Positions 1,149 to 36,819 of a stretch of DNA of 64,000 nt are shown here, piece by piece. The notes beneath the pieces were generated by a model. The model was not told the DNA's origin. It worked only from the letters and a program-made list of their open reading frames with translations, and did not search any database. Both the position numbers and the translations under genes were made by a program. The stretch lies in the IMG/VR virus record IMGVR_UViG_3300045988_156427; one strand, written 5' to 3'. This stretch comes from a virus (lineage: Duplodnaviria; Heunggongvirae; Uroviricota; Caudoviricetes). Each line of letters opens with the position of its first letter. Position 1 is the first letter of the stretch.

Positions 1149-1721
1149 ATGCAAATTGGCTACATTCGTGTGTCAACAAATGACCAAAACACAGATTTAC
1201 AAAGAAATGCACTGAACTGCGCAGGATGTGAACTGATTTTTGAAGATAAAATAAGCGGAACAAAGTCAGCCAGACCAGGCTTGAAAAAGCTGCTCAGAAC
1301 GTTATCAGAAGGAGATACGCTGGTTGTCTGGAAGCTGGATAGGCTTGGCAGAAGTATGAAACACCTTATCACGCTTATAGAGGAGTTGCGGGAAAAAGGT
1401 GTTAATTTCCGTAGTCTGACAGACAGTATTGACACATCAACACCCATGGGGCGTTTCTTTTTTCATGTCATGGGTGCTTTAGCAGAAATGGAACGTGAAT
1501 TAATTGTTGAGAGAACACTGGCCGGACTGGCAGCTGCACGCGAACAGGGACGCATTGGCGGACGTCGCCCGAAGTTGACAAAAGAACAACATGAGCAAAT
1601 AGCGAGGTTGATCGAAAATGGCTACAGCAGGAAACAGTTGGCAATTATTTACGATATCGGTGTATCGACGATTTATCGTTATCATCCTGTAGAGAAGCGC
1701 CAAACTCAATCTGAGCTGTAA
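1149..1721 (+). CDS. cin: Serine DNA invertase of the Cin/Gin/Hin/Min family
   Basis: MQIGYIRVSTNDQNTDLQRNAL... resolvase N-terminus with catalytic Ser, C-terminal HTH; ATG at 1149 with AGAGG RBS (track start 1140 is TTG). Confidence 0.9.
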   Translation: MQIGYIRVSTNDQNTDLQRNALNCAGCELIFEDKISGTKSARPGLKKLLRTLSEGDTLVVWKLDRLGRSMKHLITLIEELREKGVNFRSLTDSIDTSTPMGRFFFHVMGALAEMERELIVERTLAGLAAAREQGRIGGRRPKLTKEQHEQIARLIENGYSRKQLAIIYDIGVSTIYRYHPVEKRQTQSEL

Positions 1722-2156
1722 TTCTAATGCCGCGTCGGTGTAATTTATCTTGATAGAATAGGTACATTTATCGCGCGGCACATCAATTCGATGTATCTAG
1801 CGCCTGCTGACCGCTAATGAAAACTGTTCTCGAAATGTTGTCCCTAGTCCGAGACTAGGGTATCACCTCTGGAAAGCATACGCAGAACCTTTTTTAACCC
1901 AGGGTGCCCAGCCTTTTTGCTGCTCGCCTTATTCGCAAAAATTAGCTCACATCCTGCGCTTTCAAGTGCTTTTCACTGCATAGCTGTGTTTTGTTCATTT
2001 GTCTATATGCGTACATAGCCTATTAGCATATTTTTTGCCCACTATCGTTATTTATTGCAAGCCACAGGTTTTAATTAACAAAACCAGTGTGTGTGGAAAT
2101 CACAAAGTGCATACCGTTCTCAAATGTTGTTCAACTTACTGTTGTATAGGTAAAAA

Positions 2157-2420
2157 ATGACATTTTATGTACATATCGTGATGTTATCCCTTCTTGGTGG
2201 GGTGTATTCGTATTTGAGTGGGCTATGTGAAAACCGTTACGAGTCTTCATGCAAGAAATTGCTGGCCGAATGTATTTCCGCCGTACTTGCTGGCTTTATT
2301 GGCATGTATCTCGCGGAATATAAGGACATGAATGAAAGCCTTCAGAGCTGCATGGTTCTTATTTTCAGCGCCAATAGCAGGCTTATTATTGAAGGTTCCA
2401 AAAGTCGGTTGAATAGGTAA
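2157..2420 (+). CDS. Small membrane protein, possible lysis-cluster (holin-like) protein
   Basis: 87 aa, hydrophobic segments, directly upstream of lydA. Confidence 0.4.
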   Translation: MTFYVHIVMLSLLGGVYSYLSGLCENRYESSCKKLLAECISAVLAGFIGMYLAEYKDMNESLQSCMVLIFSANSRLIIEGSKSRLNR

Positions 2421-2494
2421 GTCTCTTATGCAACATAACCGGTTGAGAAGTTACTTTGCATACCATTACCTCCTGACAACGTAGGAGGGAACTT

Positions 2495-2824
2495 GTGCTT
2501 GACACACAGGAATTAGCTCCAGTTGCTATTGCGCTCCTGCTTTCAGTAATTGGTGGGATAGGCACGTTCCTGATGGATGTCCGAGACGGTCGCCAGTCTG
2601 GCAATTTGTTGGGATTGGTTACGGAGATCTTTGTTGCAGTGACAGCTGGCGCGGTGGCGTACCTATTGGGGCAACACGAGGGCTGGGAGTTATCAATTAC
2701 GTACTTAATGGTAACGATAGCCAGCAATAACGGTCATGAGGTGATTTCAGGGATGAAACGAGTGAATATCGATAGCATTCTGAATGTTCTTACAAGTTTG
2801 GTGAAAAAGGGAGGCGGGAAATGA
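2495..2824 (+). CDS. lydA: Holin LydA
   Basis: 109 aa, two or three TM segments, GTG start after AGGAGGG RBS; first gene of the lyd-dar operon by synteny. Confidence 0.6.
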   Translation: MLDTQELAPVAIALLLSVIGGIGTFLMDVRDGRQSGNLLGLVTEIFVAVTAGAVAYLLGQHEGWELSITYLMVTIASNNGHEVISGMKRVNIDSILNVLTSLVKKGGGK

Positions 2825-3264
2825 TTGGCTGGGGTGTATGCGTTCTTGCGTTAGCCTTAGCCGATCGCTATTTGCTAAAACGCAAGGACATCACGCATTT
2901 AGAACTTGGTGATGTGGAAATTAAACCGGGTTTCATCCGGGTGCCGTTCAAATACCGGTCTAAATTCCCGTTTTTGCGCGGCGCAACGGTCAGATATTGG
3001 ATCCGCGATGTTCAGAAGCCGACGACAGTGATTGAAGGCGAACAACGTTGTTTGACGTCGGCTGAACAGGGCGAAAACAGTGAATGGTTGTACATACCCA
3101 CTGAATATATGGGTAAAGGAGAGCGACTGTGGCATTTCAACGTCATGGTTACGCATGGCGACTCGTTCATTAACCCGTTGTATCGGATTTTCCCTGTTAC
3201 TCAGCAAATCCGCAGAAGTTACGTAATAAATCTCGCACAGGATGTGTCAGATGACGAAAAATAA
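2821..3264 (+). CDS. lydB: Antiholin-like LydB
   Basis: 147 aa, ATGA start/stop overlap with lydA; synteny. Confidence 0.5.
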   Translation: MIGWGVCVLALALADRYLLKRKDITHLELGDVEIKPGFIRVPFKYRSKFPFLRGATVRYWIRDVQKPTTVIEGEQRCLTSAEQGENSEWLYIPTEYMGKGERLWHFNVMVTHGDSFINPLYRIFPVTQQIRRSYVINLAQDVSDDEK

Positions 3265-3853
3265 GTATGCAACGGTCGATTTTGACCAGGTTAATGAAAA
3301 GGGGCTGAAATCCCTTATCGCGGCGATCAATAAAACCGGTGTTACGGTAATTGAGGTTGACTCCAGCAACCGCGCAACAACGAAAGATGGCGTTAAAGTT
3401 AAAACCGCAAAGCTGGTTCTTAACGACGGACAAATTCTTGCCATACAGGTAAACGATACTGGCGATATATCGTCTGTGAGGCTGAATGGAAAAGCTATTC
3501 CTAACGCTCAGTCGCCGGATATCAAGACGCTTGGTACCGTCATGGGGCAAGCGGCCCGCAAAAACTCCGCAAAATTCCAGAAATCACTGATCGCCAAAGC
3601 GAAACGTGTTGCCAATCCGGTAGACAAGAAACCGGCAGTAAAATCCAACTTTCAGCGCCTGCAAGAGGCAAAACAGCGGAATGCTCAGGTGGTTGCCGCT
3701 TATAAATCAGCGCAGAACTCGGTGTCTTTCAATCAACAGCAGATCACTGATTTGCGGGCGAAGCTGGATAAGGAGACAGGCCGACTCAATAACGAAAAGG
3801 CCCGAAATGGCGAACTCAAACGCCGTCTTAAGCAACTGAAAGCAGGAAATTAA
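3251..3853 (+). CDS. hdf: Hdf, head-associated Dar-operon protein
   Basis: About 200 aa, coiled-coil C-terminus; start moved to ATG 3251 with AGGA RBS; synteny upstream of darA. Confidence 0.5.
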   Translation: MTKNKYATVDFDQVNEKGLKSLIAAINKTGVTVIEVDSSNRATTKDGVKVKTAKLVLNDGQILAIQVNDTGDISSVRLNGKAIPNAQSPDIKTLGTVMGQAARKNSAKFQKSLIAKAKRVANPVDKKPAVKSNFQRLQEAKQRNAQVVAAYKSAQNSVSFNQQQITDLRAKLDKETGRLNNEKARNGELKRRLKQLKAGN

Positions 3854-3854
3854 C

Positions 3855-5774
3855 ATGGAACAGTTCAATATCAATAAAGGGGTGACGATCAAGCCTGGGC
3901 TTGACGTGCTTCCCCCGCCAGTGACTGATGATGAATATCGCGCATTAATGGCCGGTGAGGACCGCTATCTGATGACGGAATCCAACACCCTGGAAGAAAT
4001 CGAGGCTACGTTCTTCTATGACACGCCGATCCACTGGTGTGCTACGGATTTACTGGAGGCGATTAGTTCTACTCGTTTGCAGCTACACCGGACCATGCAG
4101 GCATTTGTCCGGGCATTGAACCAGAAGCTGAATGGTACCGGAATCTCTGCGGGGAGTGATAAAACGGGGGATGTGGCCCAGAACGGTGCACGCGCGATCG
4201 GCGGGGCTGAAATTGGCCGGGCACGTAACGTTAACGGGCTGCCGGTTCTGCCAGCCATTATTCCGCTCAGTGATGGTCAGACTATCAGCATTCTGTTTCA
4301 TAGCCCGACAGCGGAAAACCGGATCACCAATAGCGATACGCTGATTGCTTTCCAGTTCTTACTGAATAAAAAAGACGTTACTCATACCGTTGCTCCGATG
4401 AGTGGACGTGATATGACGCTGGCGCAGGTCACCATGAAACTTGCCAACCTTGCAGAGAAAAACTCGGCAAAATTCCAGCGTGCGCAGAAGAAGAAAAAAG
4501 CCCTGGTTGATGAAATAACCCAACTACAGGCTGACAGTGACCAGAAAGAGGATGCCATGAGCGACCTCGCGGATCAGGTGGCAGCGGTAGAAGGGCAGAA
4601 GGTAGATTTGGAGCAGAAAATTAACGCTGTTGCATCGGAAGCGGATTCTCTTTATGAAGAGAATGAGCGTTTGCAGACGGAGATTGATCAGCTCAATCGC
4701 ACTGGTGGGCGCGAAACCATTGCTCCTGCGGGGATGACTGGTGGACACTCTCGCGCGATGACGGATCGCCTTGCAAGTATCAAAAATCGTATGCATATGA
4801 ACGGGGAAGTGACGCTCAGTAATGGTGCATCAATGAAGCAATTCATTGAGGACGGTGAAGGGTATATCCAGTTAACCGATTCGGATGGCAGCGTGTACAT
4901 GATCAAGGCTAAATCCATACAGGGCGTGGACATGGCAGATGCGATCGGCAAGCTGTTTAAAGCCTATAAAGCGGGTAATGTATCGGAATACCTGGTCCAA
5001 ACAGAAGAACATAAACCGGAAAAGGTCGAACCTGAACCAGCGGAGGATACCGGTAGCTCTTCGCCTGAACCAGAAGTCTCTGTAGGTGCATATCGATATG
5101 CCCTGCAAATGCGTCCGGCGGCCCCTGGCGCAATACCTGAAAGTAACAAAGCAATTCTGCCGCGCCCTGATGAAGGTGACCCGTATTATGAATATGCACG
5201 CTACGGCATTGCTACTTACGATACCCCGATTTCTGATCAGCAAATGAGTGAGTACGACCTGAAGTTATTGCCTCGCGAGGATTCTTTCGACTTCCTGGCG
5301 AAGACACTTACTAATGGTCCGTTTGGCAAATATGCACAAAAAGCTCTGGAGCTGGCCACCAGCTCACCAGACGAGTTCCGCGTAATGCTGAAAACTCAGT
5401 TTCAAAAAACTTTCCCCAATATTGCGTTTCCTGGGGGCGCTGGCACCGAGAAAATGGTGCAGAGCATGATCAATGCATTGCAGGCCGAAGTCGGTGAGAT
5501 TACTCAGCCAGAACCGGCCCCGGCACAGCCTGATGAAACGGTTAGCGAAGCAGATGCAGAGGCTAATAAAGCCATTGAATATCTCAATAACGTGATGGAT
5601 ATGCAAAGCACTGACATGGCGGAGATCCGTAACGCTCGGGGCAATGTCCGGGAAGCGATTGCAGCCCTTCAGGCTGCCGGACGTTTTGAGGAAAACGAAG
5701 AGCTGGTTAACGGCGCAGCTCGCCACCTGGCTGATCTGTTGGTAGCAATCCAGAAAGCGGGGGTAGCGGCATGA
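3855..5774 (+). CDS. darA: DarA, virion-packaged anti-restriction protein
   Basis: 639 aa; position and size match the P1 dar operon. Confidence 0.7.
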   Translation: MEQFNINKGVTIKPGLDVLPPPVTDDEYRALMAGEDRYLMTESNTLEEIEATFFYDTPIHWCATDLLEAISSTRLQLHRTMQAFVRALNQKLNGTGISAGSDKTGDVAQNGARAIGGAEIGRARNVNGLPVLPAIIPLSDGQTISILFHSPTAENRITNSDTLIAFQFLLNKKDVTHTVAPMSGRDMTLAQVTMKLANLAEKNSAKFQRAQKKKKALVDEITQLQADSDQKEDAMSDLADQVAAVEGQKVDLEQKINAVASEADSLYEENERLQTEIDQLNRTGGRETIAPAGMTGGHSRAMTDRLASIKNRMHMNGEVTLSNGASMKQFIEDGEGYIQLTDSDGSVYMIKAKSIQGVDMADAIGKLFKAYKAGNVSEYLVQTEEHKPEKVEPEPAEDTGSSSPEPEVSVGAYRYALQMRPAAPGAIPESNKAILPRPDEGDPYYEYARYGIATYDTPISDQQMSEYDLKLLPREDSFDFLAKTLTNGPFGKYAQKALELATSSPDEFRVMLKTQFQKTFPNIAFPGGAGTEKMVQSMINALQAEVGEITQPEPAPAQPDETVSEADAEANKAIEYLNNVMDMQSTDMAEIRNARGNVREAIAALQAAGRFEENEELVNGAARHLADLLVAIQKAGVAA

Positions 5775-6136
5775 CACTATCAGCTATTGAGTTAATGGAT
5801 CTCAGCGATAAGTTGGATGCTCTGATGTCCAAAGCGGCTACCGCGAGTGGCATGGAGTTGCTGGATATCAGCGATGAAATTGACCAGATCATGCAACAGA
5901 TGGGGTACGGTGTGTCCGGCGGCAGTAGTGGCGAGGAAAAACAACCTTCGGTACATGATGGTGTGCCAAAACTGGTTGCTGATTTCCTGGCTGATAAATT
6001 CGTCGATCAGAGCACCGATGCATTTATCGGTACCTTGCAGGATTTGAGTCAATATGTTGGCACATACATCGACCTGGACCAGGTTAAACAGCACACGGCG
6101 GCATGGATAGCCGCCAACATTAAAGAGGCAGCATAA
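5771..6136 (+). CDS. ddrA: DdrA, small acidic Dar-operon protein
   Basis: 121 aa, ATGA overlap with darA stop; synteny. Confidence 0.5.
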   Translation: MTLSAIELMDLSDKLDALMSKAATASGMELLDISDEIDQIMQQMGYGVSGGSSGEEKQPSVHDGVPKLVADFLADKFVDQSTDAFIGTLQDLSQYVGTYIDLDQVKQHTAAWIAANIKEAA

Positions 6137-35420: not shown

Positions 35421-35438
35421 AGCGTTTTACCTCAATGA

Positions 35439-35458
35439 TACTGTTTATTCATACAGTA
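35439..35458. promoter_or_regulatory. LexA (SOS) box TACTGTTTATTCATACAGTA
   Basis: Perfect CTGT-N8-ACAG palindrome just upstream of humD. Confidence 0.8.
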
Positions 35459-35543
35459 TACATTGAAAAGGCATAGTTTGTGAAAGCGGGGTTTGTAGGC
35501 GAGCCACGCTGGGGGCTAATCACATTTCTCCCCCATCTTGCCG

Positions 35544-35795
35544 TTATTTTTTTGGTGCATCCTCGTTCTGATACACCGGATCGCTCCCTTTTGGCAACTG
35601 GAGGCTTAACTGCCGATAGTGCCGTAACCGTTCCATGAAATAGGTGCGCAGATTCTCTGGTTGCTCGCGGGCTACCTGTTCAGCTATGACAGGTATGTTC
35701 AATCGCTCTTTGTACGCCACACCGCTGGCAGCCAGATCAACGTTAACCTTATCCCGTTCTTCCTGACTTTTAGCTGCAATATTCCAATCGTGCAT
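35544..35795 (-). CDS. hot: Hot, homologue of DNA polymerase III theta subunit
   Basis: [33 protein letters not shown] resembles HolE; start moved to ATG 35795. Confidence 0.7.
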
Positions 35796-36244
35796 ATCAA
35801 ATCCCATCCAGAACAATTGCGTAACGACTATTATTTAACCAGCAAAGTAACTTTTAATTTTTTTTCTTTTCCCATTGATTTTTGTGCACAGCTTATCTGC
35901 CTTGCCGTGCGCAGAATCAACTTTTTTCTTCCTGATTTATCCACAAAGTTATGCACTTGCAAGAGGGCCATTTTCTAAATATTGTGATGTTTCACAAATG
36001 AAATGAATTTTGATTAATGAAGATAAGGAGAAAATTTGAGATGCAATCATGACGTTAATAGATAGGGTCTGCATTACAGACCCCATCCGCATCAAGGAAT
36101 TAGCCGTTCCCTGATGTTGTTCCGAAAACATGTGCCGTAAGCTCACGTTAACGACTTTCTTTCACCGAATCCAACTATATAGGGGTTGGGTTTCTACGTC
36201 AACGTGAGCAAGTGCTCCTTTACATTTGACAAGGAACCACCTTA

Positions 36245-36382
36245 ATGACTGCTTTTTTTCAGTTCCTGAGTGCATTTTTAGATGCGCCTGTTATTAGCCA
36301 GATTCTGGCGATCATCCTCATCATCGTTTTGATTTTGCTTTTAAGGTCAGTAAAAAATGGAATTATGCACTGGCTTACTTAA
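36245..36382 (+). CDS. Candidate 45-aa hydrophobic peptide (MTAFFQFLSAFLDAPVISQILAIILIIVLILLLRSVKNGIMHWLT)
   Basis: ATG to TAA, one predicted TM helix, AAGGA 10 nt upstream; in a 640-bp stretch with no other long ORF. Confidence 0.35.
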   Translation: MTAFFQFLSAFLDAPVISQILAIILIIVLILLLRSVKNGIMHWLT

Positions 36383-36456
36383 TGTTCAGTGAAACATTAA
36401 AATCTCCTTGATGTGGAAACAATCATTTTCTGTATGTGCTGGTGGGTACCTGTAGT

Positions 36457-36819
36457 TCAGCTTTCGTTGGCATTTAACTTCGTCTTTGCTTTCTCCACCA
36501 GCAACTTCCAGATGCCTATTTCATTAGCAGCCGCCTTGATGGCGGCATAAAAAGCATCTTGCTGATCGTAACGCTGAATCTGTTTTTTCATTTTTGCCTC
36601 CACCAATTTAATTTCATTACGTGCTTTCTGAAGCCGCAGCGCCGCCCGGTTACGTCTGTTCTTGTATAGCGCGTTAATCTCTGATAATTGCTTTAATTTA
36701 CCAGCCTGACTGCGGATTATCGCCTCTCTGACTTCTGCCGTGCGTCTCATCTGATCTCTTAAGAGTTCACCGTTTTCGATAATTCTTTCAAGGTGTTTGA
36801 TGTGATCTGCAACTCTCAT
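36457..36819 (-). CDS. Hypothetical coiled-coil protein
   Basis: 120-aa ORF in a co-directional overlapping gene string. Confidence 0.45.
   Translation of the reverse strand: MRVADHIKHLERIIENGELLRDQMRRTAEVREAIIRSQAGKLKQLSEINALYKNRRNRAALRLQKARNEIKLVEAKMKKQIQRYDQQDAFYAAIKAAANEIGIWKLLVEKAKTKLNANES

What the first reader, a model, noticed from the sequence alone, without database searches (positions are those of the whole stretch)
36131..36382. Candidate small hydrophobic toxin-like peptide with a long-range inverted repeat in its leader
Seen in sequence: the 640-bp gap between hot and the next gene has no long ORF but contains a 45-codon ORF (36245-36382) encoding a single-TM peptide with a basic C-terminal tail. 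35-100 nt upstream lies a 13-bp inverted repeat (GCTCACGTTAACG at 36141-36153, CGTCAACGTGAGC at 36197-36209). This layout resembles type I toxin-antitoxin or small membrane-peptide loci (hok, tisB, ldr). Coding status is not established.
Basis: inference. Interest (0 to 1): 0.4.

Follow-up and report, generated by a model that had tools for sequence, protein, structure and literature searches.

The report
Candidate small toxin gene in phage P1
Between the hot and pmgV genes of a P1-type phage-plasmid lies a conserved 45-codon membrane-peptide ORF behind a very highly conserved, hairpin-rich leader that has a promoter on the opposite strand; this layout fits an RNA-controlled (type I) toxin-antitoxin module, but neither expression nor toxicity has been shown.

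Summary

The window is a P1-like IncY phage-plasmid. The P1 reference annotates only minus-strand ORFs here (upfM/N/O). NCBI's PGAP calls the plus-strand ORF a hypothetical protein (WP_000123562.1).

Evidence for a real plus-strand unit:
- The ORF is intact, indel-free and keeps a Shine-Dalgarno in three clades (77% DNA identity). upfM is lost and upfN truncated in the divergent clade.
- A copy of the E. coli nrdA promoter, with DnaA boxes, points at the ORF.
- The leader (36020-36209) is 84-96% identical by segment, against 58-69% with indels for the flanks.
- An invariant sigma-70-like promoter on the minus strand inside the leader would give a ~110-nt antisense RNA.
- A sister lineage carries an AgrB-like sRNA and a different small hydrophobic ORF at the same position.

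Evidence against: amino-acid changes are no fewer than random, there are no homologues outside P1-like elements, no known toxin or RNA family matches, and no RNA, protein or toxicity data exist.

Verdict: plausible orphan type I toxin-antitoxin-like locus, confidence about 0.4.

The parts
35861..35985 (+). Copy of the E. coli nrdA promoter region. DnaA boxes TTATCCACA (35937-35945) and TTATGCACT (35949-35957); -35 TTGCAA (35957-35962); -10 TATTGT (35980-35985). Predicted start near 35992, firing toward ORF45.
   Evidence: GenBank M95666 annotates an 'nrdA-like promoter' and a dnaA box on this strand. The block is 83.5% identical to the E. coli chromosome (H57). In the alignment the chromosomal copy lies upstream of nrdA (MNQNLLVTKRDG... 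at L068 nt 839), in the same orientation. The core is invariant in all clades. Activity was not tested.
36024..36052 (+). Strong SD-like TAAGGAG (36024-36030) followed by a mini-ORF at ATG 36041 (MQS* in P1-type, ATG-TAA in the RHB27 clade).
   Evidence: Read from the sequence. The 36020-36060 segment is 92.7% identical between clades. The C36044T change turns the mini-ORF into a start-stop. Function unknown.
36049..36114 (+). 21-codon leader ORF (MTLIDRVCITDPIRIKELAVP). Its stop codon lies in the 3' arm of hairpin HP2. Coding status is doubtful because there is no well-spaced SD.
   Evidence: It is open in all clades, but 6 of 21 residues differ and the nucleotide changes track the hairpins.
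36061..36087 (.). Hairpin HP1: 11-bp stem and 5-nt loop.
   Evidence: Fold (HP1 and HP2 together, z = -6.0). One compensatory change, T36068-A36080 to C-G, in the RHB27 clade. More stable as minus-strand RNA (-18.6 against -13.1 kcal/mol).
36090..36121 (.). Hairpin HP2: 10-bp stem and 7-nt loop, followed on the + strand by a U-rich tract (UGUUGUU in P1-type, UUUUUAU in the RHB27 clade). Possible + strand attenuator or terminator.
   Evidence: Fold. All three loop changes leave the stem intact. More stable on the minus strand (-11.1 against -8.9 kcal/mol). The terminator role is inferred from sequence only.
36141..36209 (+). Hairpin HP3. A 10-bp apical stem (36167-36176 / 36184-36193) contains three G.U pairs that exist only in + strand RNA.
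   Evidence: -25.5 kcal/mol, z = -3.6. 95.7% identical between clades. The apical stem folds at -9.8 kcal/mol on + against -4.6 on -. C36142T keeps pairing as U.G on + only.
36174..36202 (-). Sigma-70-like promoter TTGACG (36202-36197), 17-nt spacer, TATAGT (36179-36174). Lobocka's predicted 'PupfN'; here the candidate promoter of an antisense RNA.
   Evidence: Best consensus match in the region, 10 of 12 positions. Annotated as a predicted promoter in NC_005856. Both hexamers are invariant in all 13 distinct sequences. Activity was not tested.
36050..36167 (-). Candidate ~110-nt antisense sRNA: about 50 nt of unstructured 5' tail, then perfect stems HP2' and HP1', then UAUCUAUUAA. Fully complementary to the ORF45 leader 78-190 nt upstream of the ATG.
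   Evidence: Minus-strand fold -44.7 kcal/mol, z = -4.6. Both ends are inferred: the 5' end from the promoter, while the 3' end is weak as a terminator.
36231..36236 (+). Shine-Dalgarno of ORF45 (AAGGAA, 8-9 nt before the ATG).
   Evidence: Kept as AAGGAA or GAGGA at the same spacing, inside a segment that is otherwise only 65% identical and has an indel.
36245..36382 (+). ORF45: 45-codon single-TM peptide, the candidate toxin or small membrane protein. Identical to RefSeq WP_000123562.1 'hypothetical protein'.
   Evidence: PGAP calls it in 100%-identical plasmids. It is intact in 62 of 63 assessable loci, with five amino-acid variants in three clades. There are no indels and dN/dS is 0.45. 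Simulation.
36383..36446 (+). 3' tail of the conserved block. 36423-36439 can pair with 35990-36006, at the predicted 5' end of the + RNA (fold-back).
   Evidence: Homology between clades ends near 36447. In the RHB27 clade the duplex is 17 bp at -27 kcal/mol, reached by 0 of 1000 shuffles. In P1 and P7 it is weak (-11 and -15.5 kcal/mol, p = 0.19 and 0.13). One compensatory pair, 36006/36423, changes A-U to G-C.

Best explanation
The gap holds a plus-strand transcription unit that the P1 reference annotation misses.

A captured copy of the host nrdA promoter, with its two DnaA boxes, starts an RNA near 35992. The RNA runs through a ~250-nt highly conserved leader with three hairpins (HP1, HP2, HP3). 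The RNA then reaches a Shine-Dalgarno and a 45-codon ORF for a single-pass membrane peptide, and it ends near 36447.

Inside the leader, an invariant sigma-70-like promoter on the opposite strand would produce a ~110-nt RNA (about 36167 to 36050). That RNA would be fully complementary to the leader 78-190 nt upstream of the start codon.

The most likely working model is a type I toxin-antitoxin-like module with the layout of ldr/rdl. The antisense RNA would pair with the 5' UTR and keep the peptide from being made, through duplex-triggered decay or by blocking ribosome loading or read-through past HP2. Loss of the short-lived RNA, or a surge of nrdA-type transcription, would allow synthesis of a membrane-active peptide.

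Shown here: the sequence features, their conservation, and the promoter orientation. Inferred: both transcripts, translation, toxicity and the regulatory logic.
For: (1) Reading frame.
- ORF45 has the same length and no indel in P1-type, P7-type and RHB27-type elements. There are 31 substitutions in 138 nt between the extremes, and the replacements are mostly hydrophobic-for-hydrophobic.
- It is intact in 62 of 63 assessable loci, and 228 of 229 plasmid matches cover at least 80% of the peptide.
- The adjacent non-coding segments are 58-69% identical with about 5-6 indel events in about 176 nt.
- In a substitution-only simulation the frame stays open in 13% of trials. It stays open with equally conservative changes in 2-3%.

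(2) The SD is kept (AAGGAA or GAGGA, 8-9 nt from the ATG) in an otherwise variable stretch.

(3) The competing minus-strand ORFs of the P1 reference are not conserved. In the RHB27 clade upfM is absent and upfN is cut to 42 aa with a different start and end.

(4) The nrdA-like promoter faces ORF45. Nothing else lies downstream on that strand before the convergent pmgV.

(5) Leader segments across 36020-36209 are 84-96% identical between clades, against 77.5% for the ORF. HP1 plus HP2 fold with z = -6.0 and HP3 with z = -3.6. Two compensatory pairs are seen.

(6) Strand asymmetry fits two RNAs. HP1 and HP2 are more stable as minus-strand RNA. The HP3 apical stem, with three G.U pairs, is more stable as plus-strand RNA.

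(7) The minus-strand promoter matches the consensus at 10 of 12 positions and is invariant.

(8) Position. E. coli rdlA lies 48-114 nt upstream of ldrA on the opposite strand, a comparable geometry.

(9) Sister lineage. In Cyrano-type elements the same slot (humD, nrdA-like promoter, X, pmgT-like gene) holds a sub-threshold AgrB-like sRNA (27.6 bits, E = 0.0055-0.022). It also holds a different 27-aa hydrophobic ORF whose 5' UTR repeats the sRNA's 5' end.

(10) Independent disrupted alleles exist: IS1 insertions at codons ~36-41 in two clades and two frameshifts.
Against: - There are no fewer amino-acid changes than random substitution would give (18 observed, 18.8 expected). Differences fall 11/8/12 across codon positions. 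dN/dS of 0.45 rests on only 31 differences. Taken alone, the open frame could be chance (p = 0.13).
- No homologue exists outside P1-like elements: 5.8 billion clusters, 1.84 billion representatives and GTDB species genomes were searched. Only three clades, effectively one deep split, are available for any comparative test.
- Pfam, NCBIfam, PHROGs and PADLOC give no match. hhalign against Ldr gives 1%. Rfam gives nothing for the leader on either strand.
- The candidate antisense RNA lacks a convincing intrinsic terminator.
- HP2 followed by Us could stop the plus-strand transcript before it reaches ORF45.
- SD sequestration is predicted in all clades, but with different partners in each.
- Covariation amounts to two events; most pairs never vary.
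- The 5'-3' fold-back is strong in only one clade.
- The sister-lineage AgrB match is below Rfam's gathering score.
- No published RNA, ribosome-profiling or toxicity data for this locus were found.
Confidence: 0.4

Rival explanations
1. ORF45 is a real but non-toxic small membrane protein of the prophage, for example a modulator of a host membrane protein or an exclusion or lysogenic-conversion factor. It would be expressed from the nrdA-type promoter, with the structured leader giving ordinary post-transcriptional control. There would be no toxin-antitoxin relationship.
For: The evidence for a coding plus-strand unit is the same as for the best explanation. The C-terminal tail lacks the Trp-plus-charged-cluster signature that PMC2887945 reports for Ldr/Fst toxins. 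upfN and upfO, the reference ORFs of this region that were tested, are dispensable for lytic growth (PMC10695390). P1 already has phd-doc 1.3 kb away.
Against: This reading does not explain why the leader is far more conserved than the protein. It also does not explain why an invariant promoter sits on the opposite strand inside the leader. The sister lineage has an AgrB-like sRNA at the same slot.
Confidence: 0.2
2. The functional products are RNAs only. These would be a minus-strand sRNA from the 36202-36174 promoter, a short plus-strand RNA from the nrdA-like promoter ending at HP2 (~125 nt), or both. ORF45 would be an untranslated open frame in T-rich DNA.
For: The strongest constraint is on the leader, not the ORF. 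Amino-acid changes are not fewer than random. In the RHB27 clade HP2 is followed by UUUUUAU, which looks like a terminator. In Cyrano the nrdA-like promoter is followed about 60-85 nt later by a strong terminator. PGAP leaves the ORF uncalled in the listed records where the peptide is 95.6% or 58-60% identical, and in some identical ones too.
Against: The ORF region is 77.5% identical without indels, while its flanks are 65-69% identical with indels. The SD and the ATG are kept. The hydrophobic profile and the length are kept. The conserved block extends about 65 nt beyond the stop codon and ends there.
Confidence: 0.25
3. The inverted repeat and the palindromic cores (ACGTTAACG / ACGTCAACG, centres 56 bp apart) are DNA binding sites for a regulator. 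Such a protein might loop or occlude the minus-strand promoter that lies between them. The hairpins would be incidental.
For: Each arm contains a near-palindrome. The arms bracket the -35 and -10 hexamers of the minus-strand promoter. Conservation is very high.
Against: Complementarity extends beyond the palindromic cores (GCTC / GAGC). The sequence between the arms forms its own 10-bp stem with strand-specific G.U pairs. C36142T preserves pairing as U.G. No candidate binding protein is known.
Confidence: 0.07
4. The P1 reference annotation is right: the gap encodes the minus-strand proteins UpfM, UpfN and UpfO, and the plus-strand ORF is spurious.
For: They are annotated in NC_005856, and equivalent ORFs are annotated in P7. 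upfM has a PHROG family, which may simply reflect the deposited annotations.
Against: In the RHB27 clade upfM is absent and upfN is truncated with a different start and end. In P7 the upfN equivalent is 102 aa against 65 aa in P1. upfO overlaps the LPhot late promoter and the DnaA boxes. Apart from the upfM PHROG, none has a family match.
Confidence: 0.03

Closest known systems
ldr/rdl type I toxin-antitoxin loci of E. coli (LdrA-D peptides, RdlA-D antisense RNAs)
   Same: A small single-TM peptide sits behind a long 5' UTR. The antisense RNA gene lies wholly within the 5' UTR on the opposite strand, tens of nt upstream of the start codon and not overlapping the coding sequence. rdlA lies 48-114 nt upstream of ldrA; here the candidate lies 78-190 nt upstream. 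There is a local motif resemblance, L-D/A-A-P-V/I-I/L.
   Different: There is no detectable homology (hhalign 1%; no Pfam or NCBIfam hit). The peptide is 45 aa, not 35. The conserved Trp is not followed by a charged cluster. The locus is single copy and phage-borne, not a chromosomal long direct repeat. The promoter is an nrdA copy.
hok/sok family (R1 plasmid and chromosomal hok/gef loci)
   Same: A maintenance-type module on a plasmid-like replicon. The toxin mRNA would be a long, highly structured RNA with a possible 5'-3' fold-back, and an antisense promoter is embedded in the leader.
   Different: There is no Hok/Gef sequence match. The peptide topology differs: Hok has a basic N-terminus, then the TM segment, then a periplasmic tail. 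There is no overlapping mok-like reading frame. The fold-back is strong in only one clade.
dinQ/agrB and tisB/istR-1 (SOS-linked type I systems in which the sRNA targets the 5' UTR)
   Same: The sRNA is predicted to act about 80-100 nt upstream of a sequestered ribosome-binding site. The locus neighbours SOS genes (humD, LexA box). The sister lineage carries an AgrB-like sRNA at the same genomic slot.
   Different: I saw no complete LexA box (CTGT-N8-ACAG) on reading the gap; this was by eye, with no pattern search run. The promoter is DnaA-box/nrdA-type. The antisense RNA here would be cis-encoded with full complementarity rather than a divergent gene with a short repeat. There is no Rfam match in the window.
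E. coli nrdAB promoter region
   Same: Window 35861-35975 is 83.5% identical to the chromosomal region upstream of nrdA (H57). The alignment carries the similarity on to the -10 hexamer at 35985. Both DnaA boxes and the -35 hexamer are included, in the same orientation relative to the downstream gene.
   Different: The similarity ends at the -10 hexamer. The nrdA leader is replaced by the P1 leader and ORF45.

Membership tests
Type I toxin-antitoxin system (generic definition) | Toxin is a small (<60 aa) hydrophobic protein with a predicted transmembrane segment | tested here: met
   The peptide is 45 aa with a hydrophobic core at about residues 14-33 and a tail containing R, K and H. These properties are kept in all five variants.
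Type I toxin-antitoxin system (generic definition) | An antisense RNA antitoxin that base-pairs with the toxin mRNA | tested here: inconclusive
   An invariant sigma-70-like promoter (10 of 12 positions) lies on the opposite strand inside the leader. The predicted RNA folds well (z = -4.6) and HP1 and HP2 favour that strand. The RNA itself has not been demonstrated and its terminator is weak.
Type I toxin-antitoxin system (generic definition) | Over-production of the peptide is toxic, and the RNA counteracts it | not testable with these tools
   This needs an induction experiment. The only indirect hint is the existence of IS1-disrupted and frameshifted alleles.
Type I toxin-antitoxin system (generic definition) | The peptide is actually translated | tested here: inconclusive
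   The frame, the SD and the ATG are kept in three clades with no indel. Amino-acid changes are not fewer than random, and the joint simulation gives p of about 0.02-0.03.
Ldr/Fst superfamily | Sequence or profile similarity to Ldr/Fst toxins | tested here: not met
   hhalign of the ORF45 alignment against LdrA-C gives probability 1% over 9 columns. Pfam and NCBIfam give no Ldr or Fst hit even at E up to 10.
Ldr/Fst superfamily | Conserved Trp after the TM helix, followed by a cluster of charged residues (signature described in PMC2887945) | tested here: not met
   W43 is invariant, but it is followed by LT or LI and then the stop codon. The charged residues precede it.
Hok/Gef family | Hok/Gef domain match and an overlapping mok-like leader frame | tested here: not met
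   There is no Pfam or NCBIfam match. The upstream + ORFs end 38 nt or more before the ORF45 ATG.
Hok/Gef family | 5'-3' fold-back (fbi) of the full-length mRNA | tested here: inconclusive
   The RHB27 clade has a 17-bp duplex at -27 kcal/mol, reached by 0 of 1000 shuffles. P1 and P7 are weak (p = 0.19 and 0.13). There is one compensatory pair.
DinQ/AgrB and TisB/IstR (SOS-regulated type I systems) | LexA box at the toxin promoter; match to the AgrB or IstR RNA family | tested here: not met
   The only LexA site annotated in the P1 reference near here is the one for lxr and humD, seen in the window at about 35440-35460. I saw no complete CTGT-N8-ACAG in the gap on reading it; no pattern search was run. 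Rfam gives no AgrB or IstR hit in the window at E up to 10.
P1 reference genes upfM / upfN / upfO | Reading frames conserved among relatives | tested here: not met
   In the RHB27 clade upfM is absent and upfN is 42 aa with a different start and end. In P7 the upfN equivalent is 102 aa.

The most novel reading that the evidence does not exclude
The captured nrdA/DnaA-box promoter is a sensor of host replication status. It fires convergently into the antitoxin sRNA gene. When the nrdA-type promoter is induced, as with the chromosomal nrdA promoter under replication stress or altered DnaA activity, its transcript would titrate or interfere with the antisense RNA and release a membrane toxin. The same promoter block is kept next to two non-homologous toxin/sRNA cassettes: ORF45 in P1, P7 and RHB27-type elements, and a dinQ/agrB-like cassette in Cyrano-type elements. 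This would make it a modular 'replication-stress to toxin' switch in phage-plasmids.
Probability: 0.1. Interest if true: 0.75.

Novelty: new member of a known kind. Interest (0 to 1): 0.45.

Why it matters
P1 is one of the best-studied temperate phages and the prototype of a large family of phage-plasmids that carry resistance genes. If this locus is real, four things follow.

- P1 has a second, RNA-controlled addiction, stress or abortive module 1.3 kb from phd-doc.
- The 'nrdA-like promoter' that GenBank record M95666 annotates without any downstream product acquires one.
- Three reference genes (upfM, upfN, upfO) are probably mis-annotated on the wrong strand.
- Type I toxin-antitoxin modules, reported as rarely mobile (PMC2887945), would be shown as exchangeable cassettes at a fixed slot in phage-plasmids.

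It also offers a compact system for studying how a host promoter with DnaA boxes is co-opted by a mobile element.

Tried and rejected
- Homology searches for the peptide found only the same family plus frameshifted or IS-truncated alleles: word-indexed search of 5.8 billion clusters, exhaustive phmmer of 1.84 billion representatives, and tblastn of phages and plasmids.
- The GTDB species genomes yielded no relatives at all.
- Pfam, NCBIfam, PHROGs and PADLOC returned nothing meaningful.
- Rfam on the window returned only noise, both at 1.5 kb and at 276 nt.
- Three conserved leader words scanned against IMG/VR recovered the same ~54 contigs each time, so no more distant relatives were found.
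- A search for paralogues in the window found none. A weak tblastn hit at 4760-4846 lies antisense inside a 639-aa gene and was dismissed.
- The antisense promoters predicted by Lobocka at the 3' end of the ORF (P1upfM, P2upfM) are poor matches, and the P1upfM -10 is destroyed in the RHB27 clade, so they were rejected as conserved elements.
- Reading the sequence, I found no plus-strand promoter between HP2 and the SD.
- SD sequestration is predicted in all clades but with different partners, so it was not used as evidence.
- Similarity between the P1 and Cyrano modules is not significant (E of 0.74 or higher). I noted a shared GTGCCGTWA motif in the P1, Cyrano and dinQ 5' UTRs but treat it as probably chance.
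- Literature searches found no P1 transcript or ribosome data for this locus. The P1 genome paper is not held.
Full report
**What the window is.** The region is a P1-like IncY phage-plasmid. The 640-bp stretch 35817-36456 is 98.9% identical to phage P1 (NC_005856) and 100% identical to many E. coli and Salmonella plasmids. It lies between hot (35544-35816, -; DNA polymerase III theta homologue) and a pmgV homologue (36457-36819, -).

**Checking the observation.**
- The gap has no ORF longer than 65 aa.
- The plus-strand ORF 36245-36382 encodes MTAFFQFLSAFLDAPVISQILAIILIIVLILLLRSVKNGIMHWLT.
- The repeat GCTCACGTTAACG / CGTCAACGTGAGC is 12/13 complementary with 43 nt between the arms.
- As a bare 13-mer repeat it is only marginally unusual: 24 of 400 shuffles contain one.
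- It forms the base of a 69-nt hairpin, HP3, that folds at -25.5 kcal/mol with z = -3.6.

**Existing annotation.** The P1 reference annotates only minus-strand features in the gap: upfO, upfN, upfM, the late promoter LPhot, and predicted promoters PupfN, P1upfM and P2upfM. The older record M95666 annotates an 'nrdA-like promoter' and a dnaA box on the other strand. It leaves the ORF uncalled in the listed records where the peptide is 95.6% or 58-60% identical, and in some identical records too. The ORF is therefore in databases but has no name, family or literature.

**Comparative evidence for the ORF.**

Relatives fall into three clades: P1-type, P7-type (about 92% DNA identity) and an 'RHB27-type' (about 77%; for example CP057418 and NZ_CP036204).
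- In all three, the plus-strand frame has the same 45 codons, the same ATG and stop codon, and no indel. The most divergent peptide is MIVFFQFLSAFLNAPVLSQVLAIVFIVVLIWFFKSVINRGVRWLI.
- Across 63 assessable loci from phages, plasmids and IMG/VR, 62 are intact and one is truncated by IS1.
- The SD is retained as AAGGAA or GAGGA, 8-9 nt from the ATG, inside a segment that is otherwise 65% identical and carries an indel.
- By contrast, upfM does not exist in the RHB27 clade, and upfN has different ends in each clade.

The protein-level signal is modest. There are 31 substitutions, distributed 11/8/12 over codon positions, and dN/dS is 0.45. The 18 amino-acid changes compare with 18.8 expected from random substitution. 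The frame stays open in 13% of simulations, and stays open with equally conservative changes in 2-3%.

The best argument for constraint is relative. The ORF is 77.5% identical with no indel, while the neutral-looking segments around it are 58-69% identical with about one indel event per 30 nt. I rate translation as probable, not established.

**The promoter that faces the ORF.** Window 35861-35985 is a copy of the E. coli nrdA promoter region. It contains the DnaA boxes TTATCCACA and TTATGCACT, a -35 hexamer TTGCAA and a -10 hexamer TATTGT (TATCTT in nrdA). Aligned with the chromosome, it has the same orientation as nrdA, whose coding sequence (MNQNLLVTKRDG...) follows downstream. The promoter therefore fires into the plus strand from about 35992. 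The only thing downstream on that strand, before the convergent pmgV, is the leader and ORF45. The core of this block is invariant in all clades.

**The leader is the most conserved part.**

| Segment | Identity, P1-type vs RHB27-type |
|---|---|
| 36020-36060 | 93% |
| HP1 + HP2 (36061-36117) | 84% |
| 36118-36140 | 91% |
| HP3 (36141-36209) | 95.7% |
| Segments on either side of the leader | 62-65% |

- Three hairpins are predicted with strong z-scores: HP1 plus HP2, z = -6.0; HP3, z = -3.6.
- In HP1 a U-A pair becomes C-G in the RHB27 clade.
- In HP2 all three changes fall in the loop.
- In HP3 a C-G pair becomes U.G.
- Covariation is thin: two compensatory events in all, because only one deep split exists.
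- No Rfam family matches on either strand.

**A promoter on the opposite strand, and strand asymmetry.**
- The best sigma-70 consensus match in the whole region is on the minus strand: TTGACG (36202-36197), a 17-nt spacer, then TATAGT (36179-36174), matching 10 of 12 positions. This is Lobocka's 'PupfN', and both hexamers are invariant.
- An RNA starting near 36167 would have a ~50-nt unstructured, highly conserved 5' tail followed by HP2' and HP1'.
- On the minus strand these two stems are perfect, because two A.C mismatches become G.U pairs. They are more stable there (-11.1 and -18.6 kcal/mol) than on the plus strand (-8.9 and -13.1).
- The apical stem of HP3 contains three G.U pairs that exist only in plus-strand RNA (-9.8 against -4.6 kcal/mol).
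- This pattern is what one expects if HP3 functions in the plus-strand leader and HP1/HP2 function in a minus-strand sRNA. That is an inference from few positions.
- The candidate sRNA's 3' end (UAUCUAUUAA) is a poor terminator.

**Other leader features (weaker).**
- A strong SD-like TAAGGAG (36024-36030) precedes a 3-codon mini-ORF that is a bare start-stop in the RHB27 clade.
- A 21-codon ORF (36049-36114) is open in all clades and stops inside the 3' arm of HP2.
- On the plus strand HP2 is followed by UGUUGUU in P1 and UUUUUAU in RHB27, so it may attenuate transcription.
- The predicted 5' end of the plus RNA can pair with 36423-36439, just before the end of inter-clade homology near 36447. 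This is a 17-bp, -27 kcal/mol duplex in the RHB27 clade (0 of 1000 shuffles) but weak in P1 and P7. One compensatory pair, 36006/36423, supports it.
- The SD is predicted to be paired in all clades, but with different partners.

**Context in a sister lineage.**

Cyrano-type elements (phage Cyrano and pO111-like plasmids) share only the nrdA-like block with P1. They have no annotated hot gene and no room for one. At the equivalent slot (humD, nrdA-like promoter, X, pmgT-like gene) there are two features.
- A sub-threshold but full-length match to AgrB, the antitoxin sRNA of the dinQ type I system. It scores 27.6 bits against a gathering score of 40, with E = 0.0055-0.022, on the minus strand.
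- A 27-codon hydrophobic ORF, MVNLLFKIVPPMFAIIKAIIEYVNQRP, with an SD and a terminator.

The 5' UTR of that ORF repeats 15 nt of the sRNA's 5' region. That is the dinQ/agrB arrangement as I know it; the locus was fetched for comparison. The ORF is present in 93 plasmids of four genera plus Shigella and is not annotated in any of the 12 records listed.

The two cassettes share no significant DNA similarity. This raises the prior that the slot is used for type I modules. It also suggests that the nrdA-like promoter, which is convergent with the sRNA candidate in both lineages, belongs functionally with them.

**Comparison with known families.**
- The layout is closest to ldr/rdl, where the antisense RNA lies wholly inside the 5' UTR (rdlA is 48-114 nt upstream of ldrA).
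- It shares with hok/sok the compact, structured mRNA and a possible fold-back.
- Membership fails wherever it can be tested. There is no Hok, Ldr, Fst, TisB or other family hit. hhalign against Ldr gives 1%. The Ldr/Fst signature of Trp followed by a charged cluster (PMC2887945) is absent.
- I saw no complete LexA box in the gap when reading it (no pattern search was run), and there is no AgrB or IstR match in the window.
- The peptide family is confined to P1-like elements.

**Verdict.** The best explanation is an orphan, type I toxin-antitoxin-like module: nrdA-type promoter, structured leader and 45-aa membrane peptide on the plus strand, with a cis-antisense sRNA on the minus strand (confidence about 0.4). 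The rivals and their confidences are:
- a non-toxic small membrane protein (0.2);
- an RNA-only locus with a spurious ORF (0.25);
- DNA-binding sites (0.07);
- the reference upf genes (0.03).

Nothing here demonstrates an RNA, a protein or toxicity. Strand-specific transcript mapping, ribosome profiling or tagging, and an induction test would settle the question.

Noticed in passing
L066 (phage Cyrano OV696614.1) 1801-2470; also L067 (NZ_CP024264.1): A sister lineage of P1-like elements keeps the nrdA-like promoter block but has a different cassette at the same slot. It carries a sub-threshold, full-length AgrB-like sRNA (Rfam RF02891, 27.6 bits, minus strand 2004-2085). It also carries an unannotated 27-aa hydrophobic ORF (2339-2421, +) whose 5' UTR repeats AAGTATCTGGCGACT from the sRNA's 5' region. 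tblastn finds the ORF in 93 plasmids (Escherichia, Citrobacter, Enterobacter, Klebsiella, Shigella). It looks like an undescribed dinQ/agrB-like type I toxin-antitoxin module.
   Followed up: partly
window 35831-35971, 35949-36146, 36162-36275 (all minus strand): The P1 reference genes upfO, upfN and upfM are not conserved as reading frames. In the RHB27 clade upfM is absent and upfN is truncated, and the P7 equivalent of upfN has a different length. upfO overlaps the LPhot promoter and the DnaA boxes. They are probably annotation artefacts.
   Followed up: partly
L011 (NZ_CP139854.1) 1501-2329; L069 (NZ_AP026785.1); proteins P0001, P0002, P0007, P0008: Independent disrupted alleles of ORF45 exist. 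There are IS1 insertions near codons 36-41 in both a P1-type and an RHB27-type background, another truncation at codon 31, and two frameshifts (after K37 and after K34). This could reflect an AT-rich IS1 target or selection against an active peptide.
   Followed up: partly
window 35421-35543: The element in this window lacks lxr. humD and hot are separated by only 123 bp, whereas P1 has the 573-nt lxr gene there. Several plasmids (L003, L006, L007) share this arrangement, while other RHB27-type plasmids have an lxr-like gene.
   Followed up: no
L004, L006, L007 about 2140-3637 and L008-L010 about 1700-3135, against window 36447 onward: Homology between clades stops about 65 nt after the ORF45 stop codon. 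Downstream, RHB27-type elements carry a type I restriction-modification hsdM gene or other hypothetical genes instead of pmgV. The hot/promoter/leader/ORF45 block therefore travels as a unit, with a recombination breakpoint just 3' of it.
   Followed up: partly
L029 (IMG/VR 2529292906_000009) 5502-6000: A mosaic allele: the first ~70 nt after the nrdA-like -35 hexamer are P7-type, while the leader and ORF are P1-type. This shows recombination within the locus.
   Followed up: no
window 36024-36052: A consensus SD (TAAGGAG) lies 10 nt upstream of a 3-codon mini-ORF (ATG CAA TCA TGA). In the RHB27 clade this becomes a bare start-stop (ATG TAA). It might be a ribosome-loading or standby element; the function is unknown.
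   Followed up: no
window 36133-36142; L066 2243-2252; L071 (E. coli dinQ 5' UTR) about 505-515 on the minus strand: A short motif, GTGCCGT(A/T)A, occurs in the 5' UTR about 90-115 nt upstream of the small ORF in P1 and Cyrano, and just upstream of the AgrB target region in E. coli dinQ. It may well be chance; no statistics support it.
   Followed up: no
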